33,778 nucleotides of DNA from a virus (Duplodnaviria; Heunggongvirae; Uroviricota; Caudoviricetes): IMG/VR virus record IMGVR_UViG_2531839450_000016, positions 1 through 33,778 of that record, one strand, 5' to 3'. Every line of letters begins with the position of its first letter. The first letter of the stretch is position 1. Below the pieces are notes generated by a model, which worked only from the letters and a program-made list of their open reading frames with translations, was not told the origin of the DNA and searched no databases. The position numbers and the translations under genes were made by a program. This document shows positions 22,306-33,778 of the stretch, piece after piece.

Positions 22306-23385
22306 CTAACATTGTTTACATAAATCAGAAAAACTACCACCGAAATAATACAGTGCAGATTTATCATTTAGTTCTTTAAAAACTTCACACGCACGCTGGT
22401 GTATCTCAATAGCACTAGATTTATTTCGCCCAATAATAACAGTCTCTTTTTCAGTACTATCGCCATCCAGAAAAGTCTTCAAAAGAAAATTAATAATAAA
22501 GTCTTCCTTTGGGAAAGAATAACCTATAAAGATCAACAGATCTGCTTGTCTCAACTGGGTAGAGGATTTCACAAAAGCTGTCTTAAAGTATTTATCCCCA
22601 TAGTCTTGTTCATTTGAAGGCAAGATAATATTTGGAACAACTTTTGCGTTTAATAATGAATCATAATCTATTTTAAAACCATCCCTTGCAGCAACAACCT
22701 CAAATCCTCCATTAAGCTTATACAAACCTATACCTTTAGGCTGAGGACACACTAATATATTATTATGATGCACAGGAAAACCCCGATTAACTGAACGTTC
22801 AGGGAATGCATGATGTAGCACTTTATCAATAACTATATCGTAGTTTGTTGTGACTACATCCAGTGCTGAAGCTTCCTGTAAACTCTTAAAGAAAGAAATA
22901 ATATTCCTTTTATTCTGCCCAAATTTTGCAGTTTGACTTAGCTTTAAATCATTTGCCGGTATTTTTTTTGCAAACTTATTTTTTACATATAGTTTTACTT
23001 GTGCCTCAAACAACTCAAGCGTATGCCTATCAAGATACGACGGCAATAAACTTGGATATCGCTTATAAACATCCAATGCATATTTAAAACTCTTGAAAAC
23101 ATTAGCTTTGTCATCTAAACCTGCATTAGCATCCGCCCATTTAAATTTAAGACTGTCGAACAAAGAAAAAAAACCATACTCATCAATATTTTCTAATGCT
23201 TCGTCTTCAGAGATGGAAAAGACTTCATTACTCAATGGGTATTTGTCATCCCAGGCTTTAGAAAATCCTGCTCCGAGAAAAACACATACTCTTCGCTCTC
23301 TTATTTTTGATTTCAATGTGGCGAAGGATGTAATTTCTAAATTATTAGGTGTCAAAATATCACCATCATAAGCAAAGCTAGTCAT
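22306..23385 (-). CDS. SIR2-like domain protein (putative NAD-dependent effector), second gene of an accessory cassette
   Basis: 359-aa ORF carrying, in order, VCVFLGAGFSKAW, VVTTNYD, YKLNGG and LLIFIGYSFPKED, which match the motif order of SIR2-like defence domains as I recall them; strongly AT-rich; starts 13 nt after the ATPase stop. Confidence 0.6.
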   Translation of the reverse strand: MTSFAYDGDILTPNNLEITSFATLKSKIRERRVCVFLGAGFSKAWDDKYPLSNEVFSISEDEALENIDEYGFFSLFDSLKFKWADANAGLDDKANVFKSFKYALDVYKRYPSLLPSYLDRHTLELFEAQVKLYVKNKFAKKIPANDLKLSQTAKFGQNKRNIISFFKSLQEASALDVVTTNYDIVIDKVLHHAFPERSVNRGFPVHHNNILVCPQPKGIGLYKLNGGFEVVAARDGFKIDYDSLLNAKVVPNIILPSNEQDYGDKYFKTAFVKSSTQLRQADLLIFIGYSFPKEDFIINFLLKTFLDGDSTEKETVIIGRNKSSAIEIHQRACEVFKELNDKSALYYFGGSFSDLCKQC

Positions 23386-23398
23386 GTTTTTCTCACGC

Positions 23399-24628
23399 TT
23401 AGTTTTTTATATCAAGAAAAGCTGGAACTAATCCAAATTCGCCACGTAAATATTTGGCAGACACTTTAGCATCTTTCCTTACAGAAAATACCGTAGCATT
23501 AGTTATTATCGACGCTTTAGATGAATCCTTGACTATAATATTAAGCTCATCTCTTCTAAACACATCATCTAATAAAGGAATATTATGTGTAGACATAATA
23601 AACTGCACACCATTTTTACGGCAGGTTTTATCAAATATTTTTTTGATTAGTGCACTTGCCAAAGAATAGTGAATAGATGAATCTATTTCATCCACATAAA
23701 GTGTAAAATCATATTCACTAGCCCAAATCAATATTGCTAAAAATGTTAAAACATTTAGTGTGCCTTGGGAAAAAAATTCATCCCTACGGTCAGGGCCTAT
23801 TCTAGTAAAATCACCATCATCATTTTTTATGAGATAAACAAATTTATACTCATTATCTTCGCCAAATCTTACAAATTCAACTTTATCTATATGCAGCGGC
23901 GACTGAATAACCATTTCATTATAGGTATTTAAAATTCTTTGACCACTCTCATTTAATTTTTCATTTCCTTCCTCACCTGATAACTGGCGCTTAAGTTGTC
24001 CTTCAACAAATTTAAGACTTGGATTTTTGAATTTTTCAGAGTAATAAGGCAATTGTTTTAATGCCCAGCGTTGGGTTTCAACAAGAGCATCAATTTCTAA
24101 AGATTTTGCAAAAGTTACAACAGCTCCACTTTCTCTTAAGACAGGATTAATCAACGACTCGTATTTTTTTAAGTCGGGCTTTTTGAAAACCAACCCATTT
24201 TCATTGCGAATAAAAATACATTGTTCCCTTGCATTTTTTCTTATCGGTCTAATGTATAAATACTCATCTACAATAACTTCATTTAAAACTGACACACCAT
24301 AACGGACGAAGTTTTTTTGCTCTTCATCAATCAGTATCGCTTCATAGGAAGTAGGTTTGTTACGACATTCCTTATTTAGAAGGAAAGGCATATGCAATTT
24401 GTGTAATGTGTCACTATGAATTGAATTTGCAAATTCAGTAATAGCATTTATTAATTGTGTTTTACCAACACCATTTCCGCCTATTAATGCGGCAAATCTG
24501 TTTACTCTTAAACCATTCGCTAATGTCACGATATGTTCAGGATGCTCATCCCCAATTGAGGAAGCAAAACTAAGAACCTGTCTTTCGCGAAAGCTCTTGT
24601 AATTTTCTAAACTGAATGCAACTAGCAT
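23399..24628 (-). CDS. ABC-type (AAA_15/AAA_21-like) ATPase, first gene of an accessory cassette
   Basis: 409-aa ORF; N-terminal MLVAFSLENYKSF followed by Walker A GGNGVGKT at about residue 50; C-terminal LYVDEIDSSIH (Walker B/D-loop) and STHN (H-loop-like); GAGGA ribosome-binding site 6 nt before the ATG; AT-rich. Confidence 0.7.
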   Translation of the reverse strand: MLVAFSLENYKSFRERQVLSFASSIGDEHPEHIVTLANGLRVNRFAALIGGNGVGKTQLINAITEFANSIHSDTLHKLHMPFLLNKECRNKPTSYEAILIDEEQKNFVRYGVSVLNEVIVDEYLYIRPIRKNAREQCIFIRNENGLVFKKPDLKKYESLINPVLRESGAVVTFAKSLEIDALVETQRWALKQLPYYSEKFKNPSLKFVEGQLKRQLSGEEGNEKLNESGQRILNTYNEMVIQSPLHIDKVEFVRFGEDNEYKFVYLIKNDDGDFTRIGPDRRDEFFSQGTLNVLTFLAILIWASEYDFTLYVDEIDSSIHYSLASALIKKIFDKTCRKNGVQFIMSTHNIPLLDDVFRRDELNIIVKDSSKASIITNATVFSVRKDAKVSAKYLRGEFGLVPAFLDIKN

Positions 24629-24748: not shown

Positions 24749-24767
24749 CTCGTATCCCCGCCACGCC
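24749..24767 (-). other. Candidate cos site (19-nt cohesive end)
   Basis: Minus-strand GGCGTGGCGGGGATACGAG followed by CGCGCGC resembles the P2 cohesive end as I recall it (GGCGAGGCGGGGAAAGCAC then TGCGCGC); located in the Q-to-A interval where cos is expected. Confidence 0.5.
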
Positions 24768-24816
24768 TGCCCGCTTTATGTAGTGGTTTTCATGCACCTG
24801 CATGATCTACGCAAAA

Positions 24817-24836
24817 GCCCGCCAGAACTGGCGGGC
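24817..24836 (-). terminator. Rho-independent terminator downstream of the lipoprotein gene
   Basis: Stem GCCCGCCA / TGGCGGGC (8 bp, 4-nt loop) followed by TTTT on the minus strand. Confidence 0.45.
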
Positions 24837-24940
24837 CTTAACACAAAAGATCCTCAAACGATCATGCGATCTCATGCAGCATAGACATGCGCGTTTATGC
24901 AGAATGTGCAAAATCGTAACATACTCAGCAAGCGTGAAAC

Positions 24941-25618
24941 CTAGAACGTGACAGCCTTGTCAAAGCCAGAAATAATTGTATAGGAAATAGACGAGTTATC
25001 AGCCTTGTTCACTTTGAACTTGGCACCTTTGTAAGCGATAACATCACTTCCCTTAGAATCTACAGAAAAATCTGTTGTAAACGCTGCACGAGCCATATCG
25101 TTTGCAAACTCACGATAGGTAAACTTCATTACACCGTCTGCATTTCCATTGTATTCGATAGTCTTAACCAATGAGTTACTCACTCGACACAGCCCATCAG
25201 GAACACGCTTGATAGAAATTTCTGAGGCTGTATAAGAAGTGCCGTTTGGTGGTGATATCTCATTTTTTGCAGCATCGTAACTTACATAATCAACATAGGT
25301 GCCGATTTGTCCATAGATATTTTTTAGCGCAACAGCTTGAGGATTATGATGATTGCGGTAAATTCCATTCCCTTCGCTGCAATATGTACCTGCAGAGATA
25401 GAAGATAGCGCACCATTAGCCGCACCAAGCTCTAGTACGTCCGTTTTATATCCAGTAGCAGATGTTATGATGGGGTCGCCCATGTAGGCTGTAGCACTTT
25501 GCCCAATAGCAGGCTTCACCACTTCAATAGCTGTGATATTTCGGTTAGAAGCATGAGGCACGCAACCAGTTAGGATTACAGCAAGAGATATAGGTAACGC
25601 AATATGGTTAATTTTCAT
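24941..25618 (-). CDS. Lipoprotein of unknown function (accessory gene next to cos)
   Basis: Likely start at the internal Met MKINHIALPISLAVILTGC (signal peptide with lipobox LTGC); AT-rich; occupies the position of tin/old in P2. Confidence 0.6.
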   Translation of the reverse strand: MKINHIALPISLAVILTGCVPHASNRNITAIEVVKPAIGQSATAYMGDPIITSATGYKTDVLELGAANGALSSISAGTYCSEGNGIYRNHHNPQAVALKNIYGQIGTYVDYVSYDAAKNEISPPNGTSYTASEISIKRVPDGLCRVSNSLVKTIEYNGNADGVMKFTYREFANDMARAAFTTDFSVDSKGSDVIAYKGAKFKVNKADNSSISYTIISGFDKAVTF

Positions 25619-25731
25619 TTTTAGCCTATTATTCTTTTCTTGACAAAAAACGAGGCGATATCTGATTGACATCACCTCTCACTCATATGTAACCCTTTTT
25701 AAGTATTAAAAACAAGCATCTATTGACAAAA

Positions 25732-25965
25732 TCAATGCAGCCAGCTGTCGTCTTCCCACACCTTCTGCATAATTTTCATCACTTGTTTTCTTTCTTCATC
25801 CAGTTGCAGTCCGGTCAGTTCCACACCGTTAGAGCTACCTTTACGGATACGAATTACCGTTTTGGGATATAGGGGGCGCAGATTGCGGTAAAGCTCGGAT
25901 TCAAGGGCGTCCAGGGTAGACTGGCTAATCTTCTGCTCTTTATCGATCATTATTTCAATGCGCAT
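25732..25965 (-). CDS. DinI-family protein
   Basis: From the internal Met: MRIEIMIDKEQKISQSTLDALESELYRNL...KIMQKVWEDDSWLH, which resembles E. coli DinI (MRIEVTIAK...ALAGEL...ETWESADDW); strong GAGGTGA ribosome-binding site. Confidence 0.8.
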   Translation of the reverse strand: MRIEIMIDKEQKISQSTLDALESELYRNLRPLYPKTVIRIRKGSSNGVELTGLQLDEERKQVMKIMQKVWEDDSWLH

Positions 25966-25975
25966 AAAAGTCACC

Positions 25976-26164
25976 TCAACTGATGACATCCATTGAGCGG
26001 TTGTATTCGTGGGTTCTGATTTTTGCCATGAGTTCATCTGTCAGTTCAGAAACCCACTGCAGGGCCAGCCCCTTCTCTTCATCACTACACTCACTAGCCG
26101 CTACAAGCTTAAGAAAAAAATCAATGCGCTGGAGCTTCAAAGACTCCAAAAAATAGTCCTGCAT
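25976..26164 (-). CDS. Small hypothetical protein (62 aa) upstream of the DinI-like gene
   Basis: ORF from MQDYFLESLK... with an AGGAGG ribosome-binding site; immediately downstream of a LexA-box-like sequence. Confidence 0.5.
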   Translation of the reverse strand: MQDYFLESLKLQRIDFFLKLVAASECSDEEKGLALQWVSELTDELMAKIRTHEYNRSMDVIS

Positions 26165-26207
26165 TTTTCCTCCTATGACACCACAAGCAATACTGTATAC
26201 ATAACCA

Positions 26208-26223
26208 CTGTTTATATTTACAG
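26208..26223. promoter_or_regulatory. LexA (SOS) box
   Basis: CTGT-ttatattt-ACAG (CTGT-N8-ACAG, AT-rich spacer) inside cactgtttatatttacagta, about 45 bp upstream of the small ORF / DinI-like pair. Confidence 0.55.
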
Positions 26224-26317
26224 TATATAATAACCTTACTGATGTAAAACGTTTTTTTACGTTCATCAGCATGATATGCCTGGTATTATTAAGAGCACGA
26301 ATTGTTAACCCGCGTAA

Positions 26318-28732
26318 TTAATACAGGTTCCGCCACTTATCATCTTCCTGCAAACGCTGGTTCCGATAGAAGATACGCAGGCCTGCTCCTGACGGAATAC
26401 TGCCTCCGCGAAGGAGTAAATCGACCTCTTTCTCGCTGCCATCAAATCCTCTGGACTTCAGCTCATACACGAGCTGCAGTCGCTGATGGTCTGTAATTCG
26501 CTGTTTGTAGTCTTTACGCCGTTTCGGTTTCACCAGGCGTAACCTTGCTGCCAGTTCCCGGCACTCTTTTTTGCTCATACTGTGCAGGTAATCGTGCAAC
26601 TCCTTGTCATCCATGCGGGTAATATCCGTTCTGGTGTCCCCATCAGCTGATTTATCTTTCTCCTGTTGGTTCAAATTTTCAGCAAGGGGACAGTTATTGC
26701 CACGAGTCCAAGGGGCGCAAGCGCCCTGGTCGGCTACCGCCTCCTGAACGTCAACGGCCTTACGAACCATTTTCCACTTCACTGCATGAGTGCAGATCTT
26801 GCCCTCTGAAATGGGTGACCAGATGCCATAAATACGAATACCGTGATCGCCATAGGCGGTCGGCTCTTCGTTGATTTCATAAGCGGTTCTGATGAGGTGA
26901 TATTTACGGGGAACCAGTACGCCGCCCTGCTTCATGATGTAGGAGGCAAAACAACCAGCATCAGCAGCAGCCAGGATGGCATCAAGGCGCGGGTTATCCA
27001 GTACCGGCGCACCTGCTTTTTTGTCCCCCTGTTGCCTTGCCGCCTGACCAGCCAGCAATCGCAGTTCACGGTAAGCCTGACGCCCCGGAATGCCAAAGAA
27101 GCGGAATTGCTGAACACGATGCAGAGACGCCCAGGCATTAACGTATTCAGCGTTATCACGCAGGGATTTACCCGTTTCCTTGCTGATCTCACCAGCCAGA
27201 CCACGCCCGTCAATGTTCTTACTGATGTATTTCGCGATGTAGCTTGTTGGCGTACCTTTGCGCGGGTTTATCAGCTCAGACTTAAAGCGTGGTCCCGTGT
27301 TATTACCCAGCTCCTCGCGGTCTTCACGAATGGCAAACTTACGCAACAAAGCAGTAATGGCTCGGCGATCTTTTTTGCGCATAAAACACAACAGGTGCCA
27401 GTGAACTGTACCGTCATGATGCGGCTCAGCCACCCGCACGCCATACCAGCGCAATCCGGCTTTGTGCATCGCTTTACGAAATGCAGCAAACATGCCGACC
27501 AGATAATCACTGCTTTGTCTTACCGTCGCGTTTGTCCAGGTCGGGTTTGGTCTGCCGTTATTTAGCGTGGAATGGAAACGTGACGGACAGGTGATGGTGT
27601 AGAAAACGGCGCAGTCACCGCGCATTTCCGCGATAAGCTCCAGACCTTTAACACAGGCCATCATCTCATTGCGGCGATGCGCAGGGTTGCTGCTGCTGGC
27701 GTTTACCACATCCTCCATGTCCAGCGTGTCGCCGTCTTCGTTCACCAGTTCATGAGAACGGAAAAACTCCAGCGACTTACGGCGCTGCTCACGTTTATGC
27801 AACACGGCTTCATAGCTGACATAGGGAGATACTTTTTTGCTGACAAGGCAGACAGCACGCAACTGCTCTTCCCGCCATTCGCAACGCATCTTCCATAATT
27901 TCCGATACCACCAGTCGGCGCATAACATACGCGCCAGCGAACCCGGAATGAGTTCATAAGGCACGGGTTTACGGCGGTTTCTTTTCCGACGGAGTTGCTC
28001 AAACGCAGGCGGGATAACATCCAGACGCAGGGTTTCCGCTGCCACCTTTTCCCATGTCTTGCGGATTTCTTCTGGCGTAACATCATCGGTGGCATACAAA
28101 TCGCCACAAGCTGTATCAAGGCACATGCTCATATGCGCAGCTACCAAGGTGGACAGGCGTTTCACCTGATCCTGACTCATTTCAGGCAGGATCAGCAGGC
28201 CGTCCAGCCCTTCATGGCTTGCCATAAAGCGAAAAGAAGTGGATAGCTGACTGTCGCGTACATGCTCCAGTCGTTCCAAGCATGGCTTAATCGTCTCACG
28301 CAAATAGCGGGAATAAGCCTTTGGCCTGCCCAGGCTGCTGAAGTATTTAATACGTTGCATCAGCGGCTTGCTGATATGGGAAGGCTGGGCGTTGACGTCC
28401 GCCAGAATGGCCATGTCTGGATTAAAACGCTGCTGCTCATGCGCCAGCTTTGCCCGGCTAATTAGCTTATCCTGCTCCATTTCGCGTTGGACAGGATCAC
28501 GGGATTCATTAAAGAAATAACGCTCCCAGACCTGATCACTCAGTGCCTCGCGGCGTAGTTGTTCCTGCTCGTTATCGGCAGCGTACAGAGTGATCAGGTT
28601 TGAAAGCGCAGAAACCGGCGCAACTTCCGCCGGGTCCAGATAAGGGTTAATGGCCTTTTTCGGGCTGTTCCATGAGAATGCTGCGGCGACCTCGTTAAAG
28701 CCGCTGCAGTTGTTCATATCAGCATGGCTCAT
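26318..28732 (-). CDS. A: Replication initiation endonuclease gpA (rolling-circle initiator)
   Basis: Large ORF with a His-rich motif ([14 protein letters not shown]) consistent with a rolling-circle Rep metal site; probable start ATG at 28730-28732, overlapping the Dam stop (ATGA). Confidence 0.9.
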
Positions 28733-29586
28733 GCACGCACTCCGTACACGACGGAACAATCCACGCCACGCGAAGGATCAAATCCTACCCAGCAGCGCGG
28801 CCCGGAAACAGCGATGATTTCTGTTGCTGATTTACTCTCACCAGCTGCTACGCCGATGCTGCGTTTTACCTTGATATAGTGGTGAGTAAAATTGCGATAC
28901 AGCGAACGGATCAGGGATGTGTCACTGTTAGAAACAATGACCGGATGTCCTTCTGATGACCGATGTTCAAGAACGGATGCCAGGTGATACTGGTCATCTT
29001 CAGTAAAGCCGTCAGCGTGATAGCCGGAAAACGTACCGTCATAAGGCGGATCGCAATACACCACATCCCCCGCCTTCAACATCGCCAGCGTTTCATCAAA
29101 GCTGGCGCAGATAAACGTTGCTCGCTGGGCTTTTTCTGCAAAAGCGCGAATTTCTTTTTCAGGGAAATACGGATTTTTATAATTACCGTAGGGAATGTTG
29201 AAATGCCCGCTCTTGTTATAGCGACATAACCCACGGTAACCGTGACGATTGAGATACAGGAAATATACCGCTTTCATGAAATCAGTAATTTCAGTTGAGT
29301 AATTAAACTCCTGCCTTATGTTGTAATAAGCCACCTCCCTGTTTGCGATCTCAAATAAAACTTTGGCGCGAGATATAAACAATTCACAATCAGCGGCAAC
29401 CTTTTTATAGAGGTTGATTAAATCAGGATTAATATCCGCAACCAGATAGCAGGGATAATCCGTCTCCATCATCACAGCACAGGAACCCGCGAAAGGTTCA
29501 ACTAGTCGCGGACCAGCAGGAAGATGTTTTTTCAGTTCGGACATTACGGCGGTTTTATTTCCCGCCCATTTCAGGATGGTGCTCAT
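28729..29586 (-). CDS. dam: DNA adenine methyltransferase (Dam family)
   Basis: From the internal Met: [11 protein letters not shown]... (the N-terminal motif typical of Dam) and DPPY catalytic motif (VYCDPPYDG); start ATG overlaps the stop of the TraR-like frame (ATGA). Confidence 0.85.
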
Positions 29587-31760: not shown

Positions 31761-32330
31761 ATGAATTTGGAGAAAGGCGGACGAGGCGCTATAGAGCGCA
31801 TGGTAGAAGCTTATGGATTCAAGACTCGACAGGCGTTGTGCGATCATTTAGGAATCTCTAAAAGTACACTCGCCACACGCTACATGCGTGACTCATTCCC
31901 AGCAGAATGGGTAATCCAGTGCGCCCTTGAAACAGGCACTTCGCTTAATTGGCTCACAACCGGGCATGGTTCAAAGCAAACTTCAGGTAATACAAATACT
32001 ATGGAAGTTGCTAAATATGTATTATCTGATGGGGCTTTGTGTGAAGACGGTTTTTATATTTTCGATAGAGAATTTCTACCGTCGGCATTCAAGAATCTTT
32101 TTGTAATCACAGATAATAATTCTGAATTTATTTGTGATAAGGAATTTGATGATATACGTGATGGTAAATGGGTAATAAGTATTGATGGCGAAATAACGAT
32201 CCGTGACATTACTCGTTTACCCGGTGGAAGAATCTTCGTCGAGGGTGGAAACAGAGCCTTCGAATGTAAGATAGAAGACATTGAAATAATTGGTAAAATT
32301 ATAAGTTTAACAGTCAAGTATGTTAAATAG
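31761..32330 (+). CDS. cI: 186-type CI immunity repressor
   Basis: About 189 aa from the ATG at 31761 (GGAG ribosome-binding site); N-terminal ...EAYGF...HLGISKSTLATRY...CALETG..L.WL.TG resembles phage 186 CI as I recall it; divergent from the apl-like gene. Confidence 0.75.
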   Translation: MNLEKGGRGAIERMVEAYGFKTRQALCDHLGISKSTLATRYMRDSFPAEWVIQCALETGTSLNWLTTGHGSKQTSGNTNTMEVAKYVLSDGALCEDGFYIFDREFLPSAFKNLFVITDNNSEFICDKEFDDIRDGKWVISIDGEITIRDITRLPGGRIFVEGGNRAFECKIEDIEIIGKIISLTVKYVK

Positions 32331-32345
32331 TACCGGGAGGAAACT

Positions 32346-32537
32346 ATGCTTGGTAAGGTATTTTTTGTGGTTTTATCATGTTCTTTGTTATTAAACCCAC
32401 TAACTACCTATGCTAGAAATTATCCCTGCTCAGGGAAAAAGGGAGGTGTTTCTCACTGTACCTCAGATGGCAAATTCGTTTGCAATGATGGAACTATTAG
32501 TAAATCCAAAAAAATCTGTACTAAAAACTCACGATAA
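32346..32537 (+). CDS. Small secreted Cys-rich basic peptide (accessory gene between cI and int)
   Basis: 63-aa ORF with a strong GGGAGG ribosome-binding site; signal peptide [23 protein letters not shown]; mature part of about 40 aa has four Cys and many Lys; AT-rich. Confidence 0.55.
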
Positions 32538-32725
32538 CTTTTGCTTTTATATCTGCGTCTAAAATAAAAATGAGCCGCAGGTTAACCGCAAAAGTTACAT
32601 GCTCACATAGCAAAAAGAATAGCCAACTTCATTATGGCTTCAGTGAGATGTATGGTCGTAGGATTTCATACATTGACACTGGTTATACATACAGTAAAAA
32701 TGCTCTCTACTGGAGGGCATTTTTT

Positions 32726-33778
32726 ATGGCAGTACGAAAACTCACCACAGGGAAATGGCTTTGCGAATGTTACCCCGCCGGACGAAGTGGGCGTCGTGTG
32801 CGTAAACAATTCGCCACCAAAGGCGAAGCTCTGGCTTTTGAGCGTCACACTATGGAAGAAACCGAATCAAAGCCATGGCTGGGCGAATCAGTGGATCGTC
32901 GAACCCTGAAAGACGTGGTTGAGCTATGGTTCAAACTACATGGTAAATCTCTGACTGCTGGGCAGCATGTCTATGACAAATTGCTGCTGATGGTTGGCGC
33001 TCTGGGCAATCCTCTTGCAACCGATCTCACCTCTAAAATGTTTGCCCACTATCGAGATAAACGCCTGACAGGCGAGATCTACTTCAGCGAGAAATGGAAG
33101 AAAGGAGCAAGCCCGGTCACCATTAACCTGGAGCAAAGCTATCTAAGTAGTGTTTTTAGCGAACTATCCCGTCTGGGCGAATGGTCGTATCCGAACCCAC
33201 TGGAGAACATGCGAAAATTCACCATCGCAGAAAAAGAGATGGCATGGCTTACCCATGAGCAGATTGTTGAATTACTGGCTGATTGCAAACGTCAGGACCC
33301 AATTCTAGCACTGGTAGTTAAGATATGCTTAAGCACAGGCGCACGCTGGCGAGAAGCCGTAAATCTTACTCGTTCACAGGTGACCAAATACCGAATTACC
33401 TTTGTAAGAACGAAGGGGAAGAAAAACAGAAGTATCCCTATCAGTAAAGAGCTTTACGAAGAGATCATGGCGCTTGATGGATTCAATTTCTTCACAGACT
33501 GCTATTTTCAATTTTTATCCGTGATGGAAAAAACGTCTATCGTGCTCCCTCGCGGTCAACTCACACACGTTCTGCGCCATACGTTTGCGGCGCACTTCAT
33601 GATGTCGGGTGGAAACATTCTGGCCTTACAAAAAATTCTCGGACACCACGATATAAAAATGACTATGCGTTACGCACATCTGGCACCGGATCATCTGGAA
33701 ACGGCGCTCCGTTTCAATCCTCTGGCAACGCTGCCAAGTGGCGACAAAGTGGCGGCAGCGGTTGGCATTACCCCGTAA
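32726..33778 (+). CDS. int: Tyrosine integrase (P2/186 family)
   Basis: From the internal Met MAVRKLTTGKW...; C-terminal catalytic region ...THVLRHTFAAHFMMSGGNILALQKILGHHDIKMTMRYAHLAP (Arg-His-x-x-Arg ... Tyr); the 3' end contains the att core repeat. Confidence 0.9.
   Translation: MAVRKLTTGKWLCECYPAGRSGRRVRKQFATKGEALAFERHTMEETESKPWLGESVDRRTLKDVVELWFKLHGKSLTAGQHVYDKLLLMVGALGNPLATDLTSKMFAHYRDKRLTGEIYFSEKWKKGASPVTINLEQSYLSSVFSELSRLGEWSYPNPLENMRKFTIAEKEMAWLTHEQIVELLADCKRQDPILALVVKICLSTGARWREAVNLTRSQVTKYRITFVRTKGKKNRSIPISKELYEEIMALDGFNFFTDCYFQFLSVMEKTSIVLPRGQLTHVLRHTFAAHFMMSGGNILALQKILGHHDIKMTMRYAHLAPDHLETALRFNPLATLPSGDKVAAAVGITP
33739..33760. repeat. Prophage attachment-site core copy (right end), direct repeat of 214-235
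   Basis: TGGCGACAAAGTGGCGGCAGCG inside the last codons of int. Confidence 0.6.

What the first reader, a model, noticed from the sequence alone, without database searches (positions are those of the whole stretch)
25732..26223. LexA box upstream of a small ORF plus DinI-like gene: candidate SOS-triggered antirepressor module
Seen in sequence: a CTGT-N8-ACAG element (26208-26223) sits about 45 bp upstream of a 62-aa ORF with a strong ribosome-binding site, followed by a DinI-family ORF, both downstream of gene A. Established knowledge: phage 186 is SOS-inducible through a LexA-repressed tum operon located after the replication gene, and as I recall Tum is related to DinI. The immunity repressor in this prophage is 186-type. 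Inference: this pair is a Tum-like antirepressor module that makes the prophage DNA-damage inducible.
Basis: partly seen in the sequence, partly recalled or inferred. Interest (0 to 1): 0.6.

Follow-up and report, generated by a model that had tools for sequence, protein, structure and literature searches.

The report
Known SOS-triggered prophage antirepressor operon
This is the DNA-damage switch of a Fels-2/186-type prophage, in which the host LexA repressor holds down a small antirepressor gene (tumA) and a DinI-like gene (tumB); an almost identical copy has already been tested genetically in E. coli HS, so the finding is correct but ordinary.

Summary

On the minus strand, just downstream of replication gene A, the window carries:
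- a 186-p95-like promoter (TTTACA-17 nt-TACTGT)
- a strong LexA box overlapping it (26206-26225)
- a 62-aa ORF (26164-25976)
- a 77-aa DinI-family ORF (25965-25732)
- a terminator-like hairpin

The 62-aa protein is a remote homologue of the N-terminal (non-DinI) half of coliphage 186 Tum (hhalign 95%, E 3e-8). The DinI ORF matches Tum residues 71-145 (41% identity). This is therefore the split tumA/tumB arrangement described for Fels-2 and PSP3.

The 62-aa protein is 61/62 identical to ECHS_RS04495, the "tum" gene of E. coli HS prophage DuoHS, and the CI repressor is 100% identical. Published work shows that deleting that gene, or making LexA non-cleavable, abolishes mitomycin C induction.

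In 40 species, every tumA homologue found has a LexA box upstream. About half also have tumB.

One side observation may be new: a conserved LexA box lies inside a promoter just upstream of int.

The parts
26243..26248 (-). -35 hexamer TTTACA of the tum promoter (equivalent to 186 p95)
   Evidence: Read from the sequence. It lies 17 nt upstream of TACTGT, the same layout as annotated 186 p95 (TTCACA-18 nt-TACTGT). TTTAC is invariant or nearly so across 23 species. The generic promoter scanner did not call it, because the -10 matches only 3 of 6.
26206..26225 (-). LexA box 1 (TACTGTAAATATAAACAGTG). Its left arm TACTGT (26225-26220) doubles as the -10 hexamer.
   Evidence: Weight-matrix score 23.2 bits and heterology index about 4.7 with a matrix I rebuilt; 0 of 200 shuffles reach this score. 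Consensus match with 3 mismatches, 0 of 100 shuffles. A box is present upstream of tumA in all 40 species loci. Both arms are invariant in alignment A8.
26191..26210 (-). LexA box 2 (CAGTGGTTATGTATACAGTA), overlapping box 1 by 5 bp (15-bp offset)
   Evidence: Score 16.3 bits, above the 95th percentile of shuffle maxima. Same geometry as the ColE1 cea double operator, and 31 of 38 positions identical to it; the ColE1 sequence was verified. A second box at +15 is present in 23 of 40 species loci. The TACAGT arm is at least 90% conserved. Window, DuoHS and Fels-2 differ here only at three spacer positions.
26169..26174 (-). Ribosome-binding site AGGAGG of tumA
   Evidence: Conserved as AGGAGG(G) in all aligned species.
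25976..26164 (-). tumA: 62-aa antirepressor, homologue of the N-terminal half of 186 Tum
   Evidence: phrog_698, E 3.6e-38; the N-terminal half of 186 Tum hits the same family at E 5.9e-6. hhalign of a broad family profile against 186 Tum: probability 95%, E 3.3e-8, residues 4-45 aligned to 4-45. 61/62 identical to DuoHS tum ECHS_RS04495 and to Fels-2 STM2728. AlphaFold2 model is a helical hairpin, pLDDT 91. The longer 98-aa ORF from ATG 26272 spans the operator and is an over-call.
25732..25965 (-). tumB: 77-aa DinI-family protein, homologue of 186 Tum residues 71-145 and of PSP3 TumB
   Evidence: PF06183, E 6.6e-23. 41% identity to 186 Tum 71-145, E 3e-24. Matches the solved DinI structure 1GHH, E 2.7e-6. 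Fels-2 annotates its homologue as similar to PSP3 TumB. Intact in 19 of 40 species loci, and a truncated remnant in 2.
25642..25678 (-). Terminator-like hairpin plus T-run after tumB (positional equivalent of 186 t95a)
   Evidence: 11-bp stem followed by GTTTTTTGTC. RNA fold z-score -2.9. 186 has a partial terminator, t95a, at the same position.
24941..25621 (-). Third gene: 226-aa predicted lipoprotein (Fels-2 STM2726 type). It occupies the place of 186 orf97 but is not homologous to it. It may be read through from the tum promoter.
   Evidence: phrog_1353, E 1.7e-101. No BLASTP similarity to 186 Orf97. The lipobox LTGC is read from the translation. STM2726-STM2727-STM2728 is listed as one differentially expressed operon after treatment with the mutagen MX (PMC2225428). 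Absent from the other 40 species loci.
31761..32330 (+). cI: 186-type immunity repressor, the presumed target of TumA
   Evidence: 33% identity to 186 CI. 100% identical to DuoHS CI. PF07022 + PF16452; the Peptidase_S24 hit is below its cutoff.
26318..28759 (-). Replication gene A, the upstream neighbour that fixes the position of the module
   Evidence: PF05840, E 2.8e-127. Annotated as P2 gpA-like in Fels-2. Gene-A similarity was found upstream of tumA in 36 of the 40 species loci.

Best explanation
This is the SOS operon of a Fels-2/186-type P2-family prophage.

In a lysogen, host LexA binds two overlapping boxes (26191-26225) that cover the -10 and the start region of a p95-like promoter, and keeps tumA-tumB silent. 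DNA damage activates RecA and LexA cleaves itself, so the promoter fires. The 62-aa TumA protein then binds the 186-type CI repressor and prevents it from holding the lytic promoter. Apl, CII and the replication genes are transcribed and the prophage enters lytic growth. TumB, the DinI-like protein, is an accessory that probably tunes RecA/SOS activity or the strength of induction.

- Shown here: the sequence features, the homologies, the conservation of the boxes, and the near-identity to DuoHS and Fels-2.
- Taken from the literature: that tum and cleavable LexA are required for induction (DuoHS), that 186 Tum binds CI, and that in PSP3 the upstream half carries the antirepressor activity.
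- Inferred: that TumA binds this CI directly, that two LexA dimers bind cooperatively, and what TumB does.
For: - LexA boxes: box 1 scores 23.2 bits and box 2 scores 16.3 bits; only one other site in the 33.8-kb window scores higher, and shuffles rarely reach 16.
- Promoter: the layout equals annotated 186 p95, with the LexA box starting at the -10 TACTGT.
- Conservation: all 40 tumA loci from different Enterobacterales species carry a LexA box of at least 15 bits, 40-97 nt upstream. The -35, both box arms and the RBS are conserved while the spacers vary.
- TumA homology to Tum residues 1-70: PHROG cross-hits and hhalign probability 95%, E 3.3e-8.
- TumB: DinI family, and 41% identical to Tum 71-145.
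- CI and CII: both are 186-type.
- Fels-2: 97% DNA identity, with the homologue annotated as TumB-like.
- DuoHS: TumA 61/62 identical and CI 100% identical. Δtum (ECHS_RS04495) and lexA(Ind-) both abolish mitomycin C-induced lysis (PMC12055606).
- Split tum: Fels-2 and PSP3 have tum split in two, with the antirepressor in the upstream half (PMC3121763).
- Expression: the Fels-2 tumB homologue STM2727 is induced up to 14.8-fold by a mutagen (PMC2225428).
- Genetics: every lexA-null survivor isolated in Salmonella had lost Fels-2 (PMC12626290 summarising Bunny 2002).
Against: - Nothing was measured on this exact sequence. LexA binding, the TumA-CI interaction and inducibility are all inferred from homologues.
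- TumA has no BLASTP-level similarity to 186 Tum or to PSP3 TumA. Homology shows only at profile level, and hhalign against the single PSP3 TumA sequence is weak (E 0.004).
- The -10 hexamer TACTGT is a poor consensus match, and the generic scanner did not call the promoter.
- The LexA matrix was rebuilt from 17 E. coli sites recalled from memory, so the heterology index values are approximate.
- The DuoHS deletion could in principle affect tumB through translational coupling.
Confidence: 0.93

Rival explanations
1. The DinI-like TumB is the effector that triggers induction, for example by acting on RecA or CI, and the 62-aa ORF is an accessory or leader peptide.
For: TumB is the only one of the two with a recognisable Pfam family. 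In 186, the DinI-like part belongs to the Tum polypeptide.
Against: - In DuoHS, deleting only the 62-aa ORF (start and stop codons fused) blocks induction.
- In PSP3 the upstream half is reported to carry the antirepressor activity.
- tumB is missing in 19 and degraded in 2 of the 40 species loci, yet these keep tumA and its LexA box.
- The annotation of truncated 186 Tum says it only 'modulates' induction.
Confidence: 0.03
2. The pair is an SOS-induced accessory ('moron') operon that serves the host's DNA-damage response, a DinI-like RecA modulator plus a small partner, and plays no part in the lysis-lysogeny switch.
For: Prophage dinI homologues belong to the Salmonella SOS regulon. The region next to cos is a cargo hotspot with variable genes.
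Against: - The position and promoter layout are those of the 186 SOS operon.
- TumA is homologous to the N-terminal half of 186 Tum.
- The tum deletion in DuoHS abolishes lysis while the host SOS reporter still fires.
Confidence: 0.03
3. The palindrome is a chance match, or the operator of a phage protein, and is not a LexA site.
For: The bare CTGT-N8-ACAG core is expected 0.42 times per window by chance.
Against: - The full 20-mer scores like bona fide E. coli SOS boxes.
- The arms are conserved and the spacers vary across 40 species.
- Box 2 in Fels-2 is identical to ColE1 box 2.
- The lexA(Ind-) allele blocks induction in DuoHS.
Confidence: 0.01

Closest known systems
tum (ECHS_RS04495) plus the DinI-like gene (ECHS_RS04500) of E. 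coli HS prophage DuoHS (PMC12055606)
   Same: TumA is 61/62 identical and CI is 100% identical. The promoter and double LexA operator are the same apart from three bases in the box-2 spacer and a few upstream bases. Gene order is the same: A, tumA, tumB. Δtum and lexA(Ind-) abolish mitomycin C induction.
   Different: The cargo between tumB and the portal gene differs. DuoHS has two hypothetical genes there; this window has a lipoprotein ORF, cos, and an AbiLi-like ATPase with a SIR2 protein.
Salmonella phage Fels-2 STM2728 / STM2726.1 (STM2727)
   Same: 97% DNA identity over the module. TumA is 61/62 identical. The double box is the same. tum is described as split in two by a stop codon. STM2727 is damage-induced.
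   Different: Fels-2 CI is only 41% identical to this CI (about 68% in the N-terminal domain, much less in the C-terminal domain). Fels-2 int is a different type (54% identity) and has no LexA box upstream.
Coliphage 186 SOS operon: p95, LexA box, tum, t95a, orf97
   Same: Location after gene A at the right end next to cos. The -10 TACTGT is the left arm of the LexA box. Tum combines an N-terminal half (the non-DinI part) with a DinI-like half. A partial terminator is followed by a third gene of about 240 aa. The CI/CII/Apl switch is of the same type.
   Different: In 186, Tum is one 146-aa polypeptide with internal starts; here it is two ORFs. 186 has a single LexA box. The N-terminal halves are related only at profile level. 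The third gene is not homologous to orf97.
Phage PSP3 tumA / tumB
   Same: The same split arrangement: a roughly 60-aa TumA and a 77-aa DinI-like TumB after gene A, behind a strong LexA box.
   Different: PSP3 TumA belongs to another subfamily (phrog_1993 rather than phrog_698). PSP3 has a single LexA box. Its CI is a 286-aa protein with a duplicated N-terminal domain.
Gifsy-1/2/3 dinI-gfoA/gftA operons of Salmonella
   Same: A LexA-repressed operon that pairs a DinI homologue with a small antirepressor acting on a repressor that does not cleave itself.
   Different: The gene order is reversed (dinI first). They are lambdoid phages, and the antirepressor and repressor families are unrelated.
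ColE1 colicin (cea) double SOS operator
   Same: Two LexA boxes offset by 15 bp and sharing CAGTG. 31 of 38 positions are identical to the window, and Fels-2 box 2 is identical to ColE1 box 2. In colicin genes this arrangement binds two LexA dimers and gives very tight repression (PMC2994835).
   Different: It controls a toxin gene on a plasmid and lies downstream of the -10. Here box 1 overlaps the -10.

Membership tests
186-type LexA-controlled Tum antirepressor operon | A LexA box overlaps the promoter of the operon | tested here: met
   Box 1 scores 23.2 bits and starts at the -10 TACTGT, as in annotated 186 p95. Conserved in all 40 species loci.
186-type LexA-controlled Tum antirepressor operon | Located downstream of replication gene A, at the cos-proximal right end of a P2/186-family genome | tested here: met
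   Gene A lies directly upstream. A cos-like GGCGTGGCGGGGA lies about 1 kb downstream. Gene-A similarity was found upstream of tumA in 36 of the 40 species loci.
186-type LexA-controlled Tum antirepressor operon | Protein homologous to the N-terminal (non-DinI) half of 186 Tum, which the literature treats as the antirepressor part | tested here: met
   hhalign probability 95%, E 3.3e-8, in register over residues 4-45. PHROG cross-hits. BLASTP alone finds nothing.
186-type LexA-controlled Tum antirepressor operon | A DinI-like moiety, fused or as a downstream ORF | tested here: met
   PF06183, E 6.6e-23. 41% identity to Tum 71-145.
186-type LexA-controlled Tum antirepressor operon | Cognate 186-type CI repressor that is not a LexA-like self-cleaving protein | tested here: met
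   PF07022 + PF16452, with Peptidase_S24 below its cutoff. 33% identity to 186 CI. The absence of self-cleavage itself was not tested.
186-type LexA-controlled Tum antirepressor operon | The antirepressor binds CI and releases it from its operator | not testable with these tools
   Known biochemically for 186 Tum (Shearwin 1998, as cited). Only genetic evidence exists for DuoHS.
186-type LexA-controlled Tum antirepressor operon | Prophage induction by DNA damage depends on tum and on cleavable LexA | not testable with these tools
   Shown for DuoHS, whose TumA is 61/62 identical and whose CI is identical. Not measured for this prophage.
DinI family (PF06183) | Sequence match above the Pfam gathering score | tested here: met
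   81.3 bits against a cutoff of 24.2. Matches DinI structure 1GHH. It is below the NCBIfam equivalog cutoff for chromosomal DinI (42.7 against 111), so it is a paralogue and not DinI proper.
DinI family (PF06183) | Binds RecA filaments and modulates their co-protease activity | not testable with these tools
   No assay was possible. The function is inferred from the family.
Colicin-type double overlapping SOS operator | Two LexA boxes offset by 15 bp and sharing 5 bp | tested here: met
   Boxes at 26206-26225 and 26191-26210. 31 of 38 positions identical to the ColE1 operator. The second box is present in 23 of 40 species loci.
Colicin-type double overlapping SOS operator | Cooperative binding of two LexA dimers, giving tight repression and late induction | not testable with these tools
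   Known for colicin operators (PMC2994835). Not measured here.

The most novel reading that the evidence does not exclude
This prophage lineage may wire two separate nodes directly to LexA, with different strengths.

- A colicin-type pair of overlapping boxes sits on the tumA promoter. 186 and PSP3 lack the second box. The pair should give very tight repression and late, high-threshold release.
- A single strong LexA box sits in the spacer of a near-consensus promoter just upstream of int (32673-32701). This would make integrase supply for excision SOS-inducible, independently of CI.

In addition, the same TumA (61/62 identical) serves two CI repressors that are only 41% identical overall but about 68% identical in the N-terminal domain. 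This hints that TumA may target the conserved N-terminal domain and could cross-induce heteroimmune relatives.
Probability: 0.35. Interest if true: 0.35.

Novelty: already known. Interest (0 to 1): 0.15.

Why it matters
The module explains why this prophage should be inducible by DNA-damaging agents. That bears on phage release, lysogen fitness and gene transfer in E. coli and its relatives. The mechanism has been textbook knowledge since work on 186, and it has been confirmed genetically in a near-identical prophage, so nothing new follows from the finding itself.

There are three practical by-products:
- Annotation: the TumA family is widespread in Enterobacterales, yet it is still labelled "hypothetical protein", and once "levan regulatory protein". 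It is also often over-called to 84-106 aa across its own operator, so annotation could be corrected.
- Operator: the tum operator in this lineage is a colicin-like double LexA site.
- int promoter: a conserved LexA box lies in a promoter just upstream of int and deserves a simple reporter test.

Tried and rejected
- BLASTP of the 62-aa ORF against 186 Tum and against PSP3 TumA found no alignment. Homology needed profiles.
- Pfam and NCBIfam gave nothing for the 62-aa ORF.
- A PDB sequence search with a TumA profile gave no hit.
- A Foldseek search of the AlphaFold2 helical-hairpin model against the PDB gave only generic coiled-coil or hairpin matches with E above 1, which is uninformative.
- An HMM search of 1.84 billion representative proteins with the TumA profile found 85 hits. 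Nearly all are small stand-alone proteins, and no 186-like fused Tum appeared. These distant members did let me build the profile that reaches 186 Tum.
- The generic sigma-70 scanner did not call the tum promoter. I assigned it by alignment to annotated 186 p95 and by conservation.
- Bunny et al. 2002, the primary Fels-2 tum paper, is not in the library. I used secondary accounts.
- A literature search for tumA/tumB/PSP3 returned only noise. A search for LexA-regulated prophage integrase promoters returned nothing relevant.
- An exact or near-exact P2 cos 19-mer is not present. A 186-like cos start, GGCGTGGCGGGGA, was found by eye.
- A scan of viral contigs with Int returned only loci with 98-100% identical int, which limits footprinting power.
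- I considered the 98-aa ORF from ATG 26272 and rejected it. It starts upstream of the promoter and runs through the operator, and the homologues with annotated starts are 62 aa.
- I tested whether the third gene is 186 orf97. It is not homologous.

Full report
**What is in the sequence**

Reading the minus strand from gene A (26318-28759; PF05840, E 2.8e-127), the features are as follows:

| Feature | Coordinates | Note |
|---|---|---|
| -35 hexamer | 26248-26243 | TTTACA, after an A-rich stretch |
| spacer | 17 nt | |
| -10 hexamer | 26225-26220 | TACTGT |
| box 1 | 26225-26206 | TACTGTAAATATAAACAGTG |
| box 2 | 26210-26191 | CAGTGGTTATGTATACAGTA |
| RBS | 26174-26169 | AGGAGG |
| 62-aa ORF | 26164-25976 | ATG start |
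| 77-aa ORF | 25965-25732 | 10 nt after the first ORF, behind GAGGTGA |
| hairpin | 25678-25652 | followed by GTTTTTTGTC |
| lipoprotein ORF | 25621-24941 | 226 aa |

On its own it is not significant: 0.42 are expected, and 37 of 100 shuffles have at least one. The full 20-mer is significant. It matches the LexA consensus with 3 mismatches, and no shuffle in 100 does so.

I built a symmetrised weight matrix from 17 E. coli SOS boxes. These were recalled from Lewis 1994 and Fernandez de Henestrosa 2000, so the values are approximate. The recalled ColE1 operator was not part of the matrix, but it matched the ColE1 plasmid exactly, which is an indirect check on my recall. With this matrix the window has exactly three outliers:
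- 32677-32696: 24.0 bits
- box 1: 23.2 bits, heterology index about 4.7
- box 2: 16.3 bits, heterology index about 9.4

The maxima of 200 shuffled windows had a median of 11.3 and a 95th percentile of 15.8.

**What it is**

The region is 97% identical to Salmonella phage Fels-2. There the two ORFs are STM2728 (hypothetical, 62 aa) and STM2726.1, annotated "DinI family protein, similar to TumB of PSP3".

The annotated genome of coliphage 186 shows the reference arrangement. After gene A come promoter p95, a LexA site that starts at the -10 hexamer, tum with several internal starts, partial terminator t95a, orf97, and the right end of the genome. The 186 sequence reads TTCACA-18 nt-TACTGTATGTTTATACAGTA. 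The window has the same design, with the left arm of the LexA box serving as the -10.

The 77-aa ORF is DinI family (PF06183, E 6.6e-23; DinI structure 1GHH). It aligns with 186 Tum residues 71-145 at 41% identity. It begins exactly where the annotated GTG-initiated truncated Tum begins.

The 62-aa ORF has no BLASTP similarity to Tum or to PSP3 TumA, and no Pfam or NCBIfam hit. Profile methods do connect them:
- It belongs to phrog_698 (E 3.6e-38). The N-terminal 70 residues of 186 Tum hit phrog_698 at E 5.9e-6, in register.
- Both proteins hit phrog_8554 (2.4e-8 and 3.4e-12) and the PSP3 TumA family phrog_1993 (0.0022 and 1.5e-23).
- An alignment of 33 diverse family members, drawn from a search of 1.84 billion representative proteins, matches 186 Tum at hhalign probability 95% and E 3.3e-8, residues 4-45 to 4-45.
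- The shared pattern is E-x3-L/I-x-R-I/V ... R-L-V/T ... C-x3-D-K/R-E-L/I-A-L/I-x-W/L-x2-E-L/I.

AlphaFold2 predicts a two-helix hairpin (pLDDT 91). Fold search gives nothing specific.

CI (31761-32330) has the 186 CI architecture (PF07022 + PF16452) and is 33% identical to 186 CI. CII is PF06892, the 186 CII family. A 186-like cos start, GGCGTGGCGGGGA, lies about 1 kb beyond tumB. The operon therefore sits at the right end of the phage chromosome, as in 186.

**Direct experimental precedent**

Lemire et al. [quoted passage not shown] They cite Bunny 2002 for this, which in turn cites a personal communication from Christie (PMC3121763).

The Phollow paper (PMC12055606) studied the P2-like prophage DuoHS of E. 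coli HS. An in-frame deletion of "tum", or a lexA(Ind-) allele, abolished mitomycin C-induced lysis and formation of viral foci, while the Δtum strain kept a normal host SOS reporter response. Its supplement gives the locus tag ECHS_RS04495. In the HS chromosome that tag is the 189-nt "hypothetical protein" between the replication endonuclease and a DinI-like gene. It is 61/62 identical to the window's ORF, and the HS CI is 100% identical to the window's CI. Within the two LexA boxes the operator differs at only three bases, all in the spacer of box 2.

In Salmonella, STM2727 is induced up to 14.8-fold by the mutagen MX, and STM2726-2728 behave as one operon (PMC2225428). Every lexA-null survivor isolated had lost Fels-2 (PMC12626290).

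**Comparative test**

A scan of one genome per species found 40 loci encoding a TumA relative (65-100% identity) in Escherichia, Citrobacter, Klebsiella, Enterobacter, Serratia, Pantoea, Erwinia, Tatumella and others.
- LexA box: every locus has one of at least 15 bits, 40-97 nt upstream of the start codon.
- Second box: 23 of 40 have a second box offset by 15 bp. These are mostly Enterobacteriaceae. The other 17 have one box; they are mostly Pantoea, Erwinia and Tatumella, with a few Enterobacteriaceae, and they resemble 186 and PSP3 in this respect.
- Footprint: in a 23-species alignment the -35, TACTGT, ACAGTGG, TACAGT and the RBS are conserved, while the promoter spacer, the box spacers and the 5' leader vary. 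This is a classic phylogenetic footprint.
- Gene A: similarity to gene A was found upstream of tumA in 36 of the 40 loci.
- tumB: intact in only 19 loci and a truncated remnant in 2. This fits TumA as the essential effector and TumB as an accessory.

**The double operator**

The 35-bp pair TACTGTAAATATAAACAGTGGTTATGTATACAGTA has the same geometry as the ColE1 cea operator, TGCTGTATATAAAACCAGTGGTTATATGTACAGTA. I confirmed that the ColE1 sequence lies just upstream of the colicin E1 start codon. Box 2 of Fels-2 is identical to ColE1 box 2. [quoted passage not shown] By inference, this lineage holds tumA more tightly than 186 does. I could not check whether Bunny 2002 already noted this.

**Mechanism**

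- Shown here: the features, the homologies and their conservation.
- From the literature: induction depends on LexA and on tum in a near-identical phage, and 186 Tum is an antirepressor that binds CI.
- Inferred: LexA occupies both boxes. After LexA cleavage, TumA is made and titrates CI. TumB modulates RecA or the strength of induction. Read-through of the hairpin may also express the lipoprotein gene.

**Rivals**

I considered three alternatives: TumB as the effector, a host-serving moron operon, and a non-LexA palindrome. All are contradicted by the DuoHS genetics, by the dispensability of tumB in relatives, and by the conservation pattern.

**Verdict**

The module is already known, so interest is low.

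The most novel material lies beside the finding:
- The double operator described above.
- A conserved LexA box inside a promoter-like sequence (TTGACA-N17-AAAAAT) 29 nt upstream of the int start codon. It is kept in all 81 related int loci examined, across 12 box variants (15.7-25.1 bits), even though the surrounding sequence differs. It is absent from Fels-2 and 186, and PSP3 shows only a weak 14-bit match in the gene upstream of int.
- TumA is 98% identical between this phage and Fels-2, yet their CI proteins are only 41% identical.

Noticed in passing
window 32673-32728 (+): The best LexA-matrix hit in the whole window (CACTGGTTATACATACAGTA, 32677-32696, 24.0 bits) lies in the spacer of a near-consensus promoter, TTGACA-N17-AAAAAT. 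It is 29 nt upstream of the int start (ATG 32726, RBS GGAGGG). A LexA box at this position is kept in all 81 related int loci examined (12 box variants, 15.7-25.1 bits), including E. coli HS DuoHS and phage ESSI2_ev129 (int 86% identical). It is absent from Fels-2 and 186; PSP3 shows only a weak 14-bit match in the gene upstream of int. This suggests an SOS-inducible integrase promoter. I found no paper describing it.
   Followed up: partly
window 26191-26225 (-); loci L005-L044: The tum operator is a colicin-type pair of overlapping LexA boxes (31 of 38 positions identical to the ColE1 cea operator). The second box is present in 23 of 40 species loci. It is absent from 186 and PSP3 and from most Pantoea, Erwinia and Tatumella relatives.
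   Followed up: yes
window 25976-26164 and 31761-32330, compared with Fels-2 (L001, L126): TumA is 61/62 identical between this prophage and Fels-2, but the CI repressors are only 41% identical. By my count from the alignment, identity is about 68% in the N-terminal HTH domain and about 25-30% in the C-terminal domain. One TumA type may therefore serve heteroimmune repressors, possibly through the conserved N-terminal domain.
   Followed up: partly
loci L005-L044, downstream of tumA: The DinI-like tumB is intact in only 19 of 40 species loci and is a truncated remnant in 2 (L019, L043). Where it is missing, tumA is followed directly by variable cargo. The LexA box plus tumA is the conserved core.
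   Followed up: partly
window 22306-24628 (-) and about 24750-24840: A 186-like cos start (GGCGTGGCGGGGA, about 24768-24756 on the minus strand) and a strong terminator hairpin (24838-24812) lie between the lipoprotein ORF and a two-gene cargo. The cargo is an AbiLi-like AAA_21 ATPase (23399-24628; PADLOC AbiLi, E 2e-51) and a SIR2_2 protein (22306-23385), placed between cos and the portal gene. It is probably an anti-phage defence pair in the P2 hotspot. This content differs in every relative examined.
   Followed up: partly
window 24941-25621 (-): The third gene of the operon region is a 226-aa predicted lipoprotein (lipobox LTGC; phrog_1353, unknown function; Fels-2 STM2726). It occupies the position of 186 orf97, which blocks 186 infection when expressed from a plasmid, but it is not homologous to orf97. 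It could be a superinfection-exclusion function.
   Followed up: partly
window 25976-26272 (-); proteins P0001-P0120: The TumA family is labelled 'hypothetical protein' in NCBI, and once 'levan regulatory protein' in UniRef and in some phage records. Many database entries are 84-106 aa because the gene call was extended to an upstream ATG (26272 here) that lies before the promoter and runs through the LexA boxes.
   Followed up: partly
window 32346-32537 (+): A 63-aa ORF with a signal-peptide-like N-terminus and several cysteines lies between cI and int. It has no Pfam hit and is also present in DuoHS. It looks like a small secreted moron, and its insertion may explain why int has its own promoter.
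   Followed up: no
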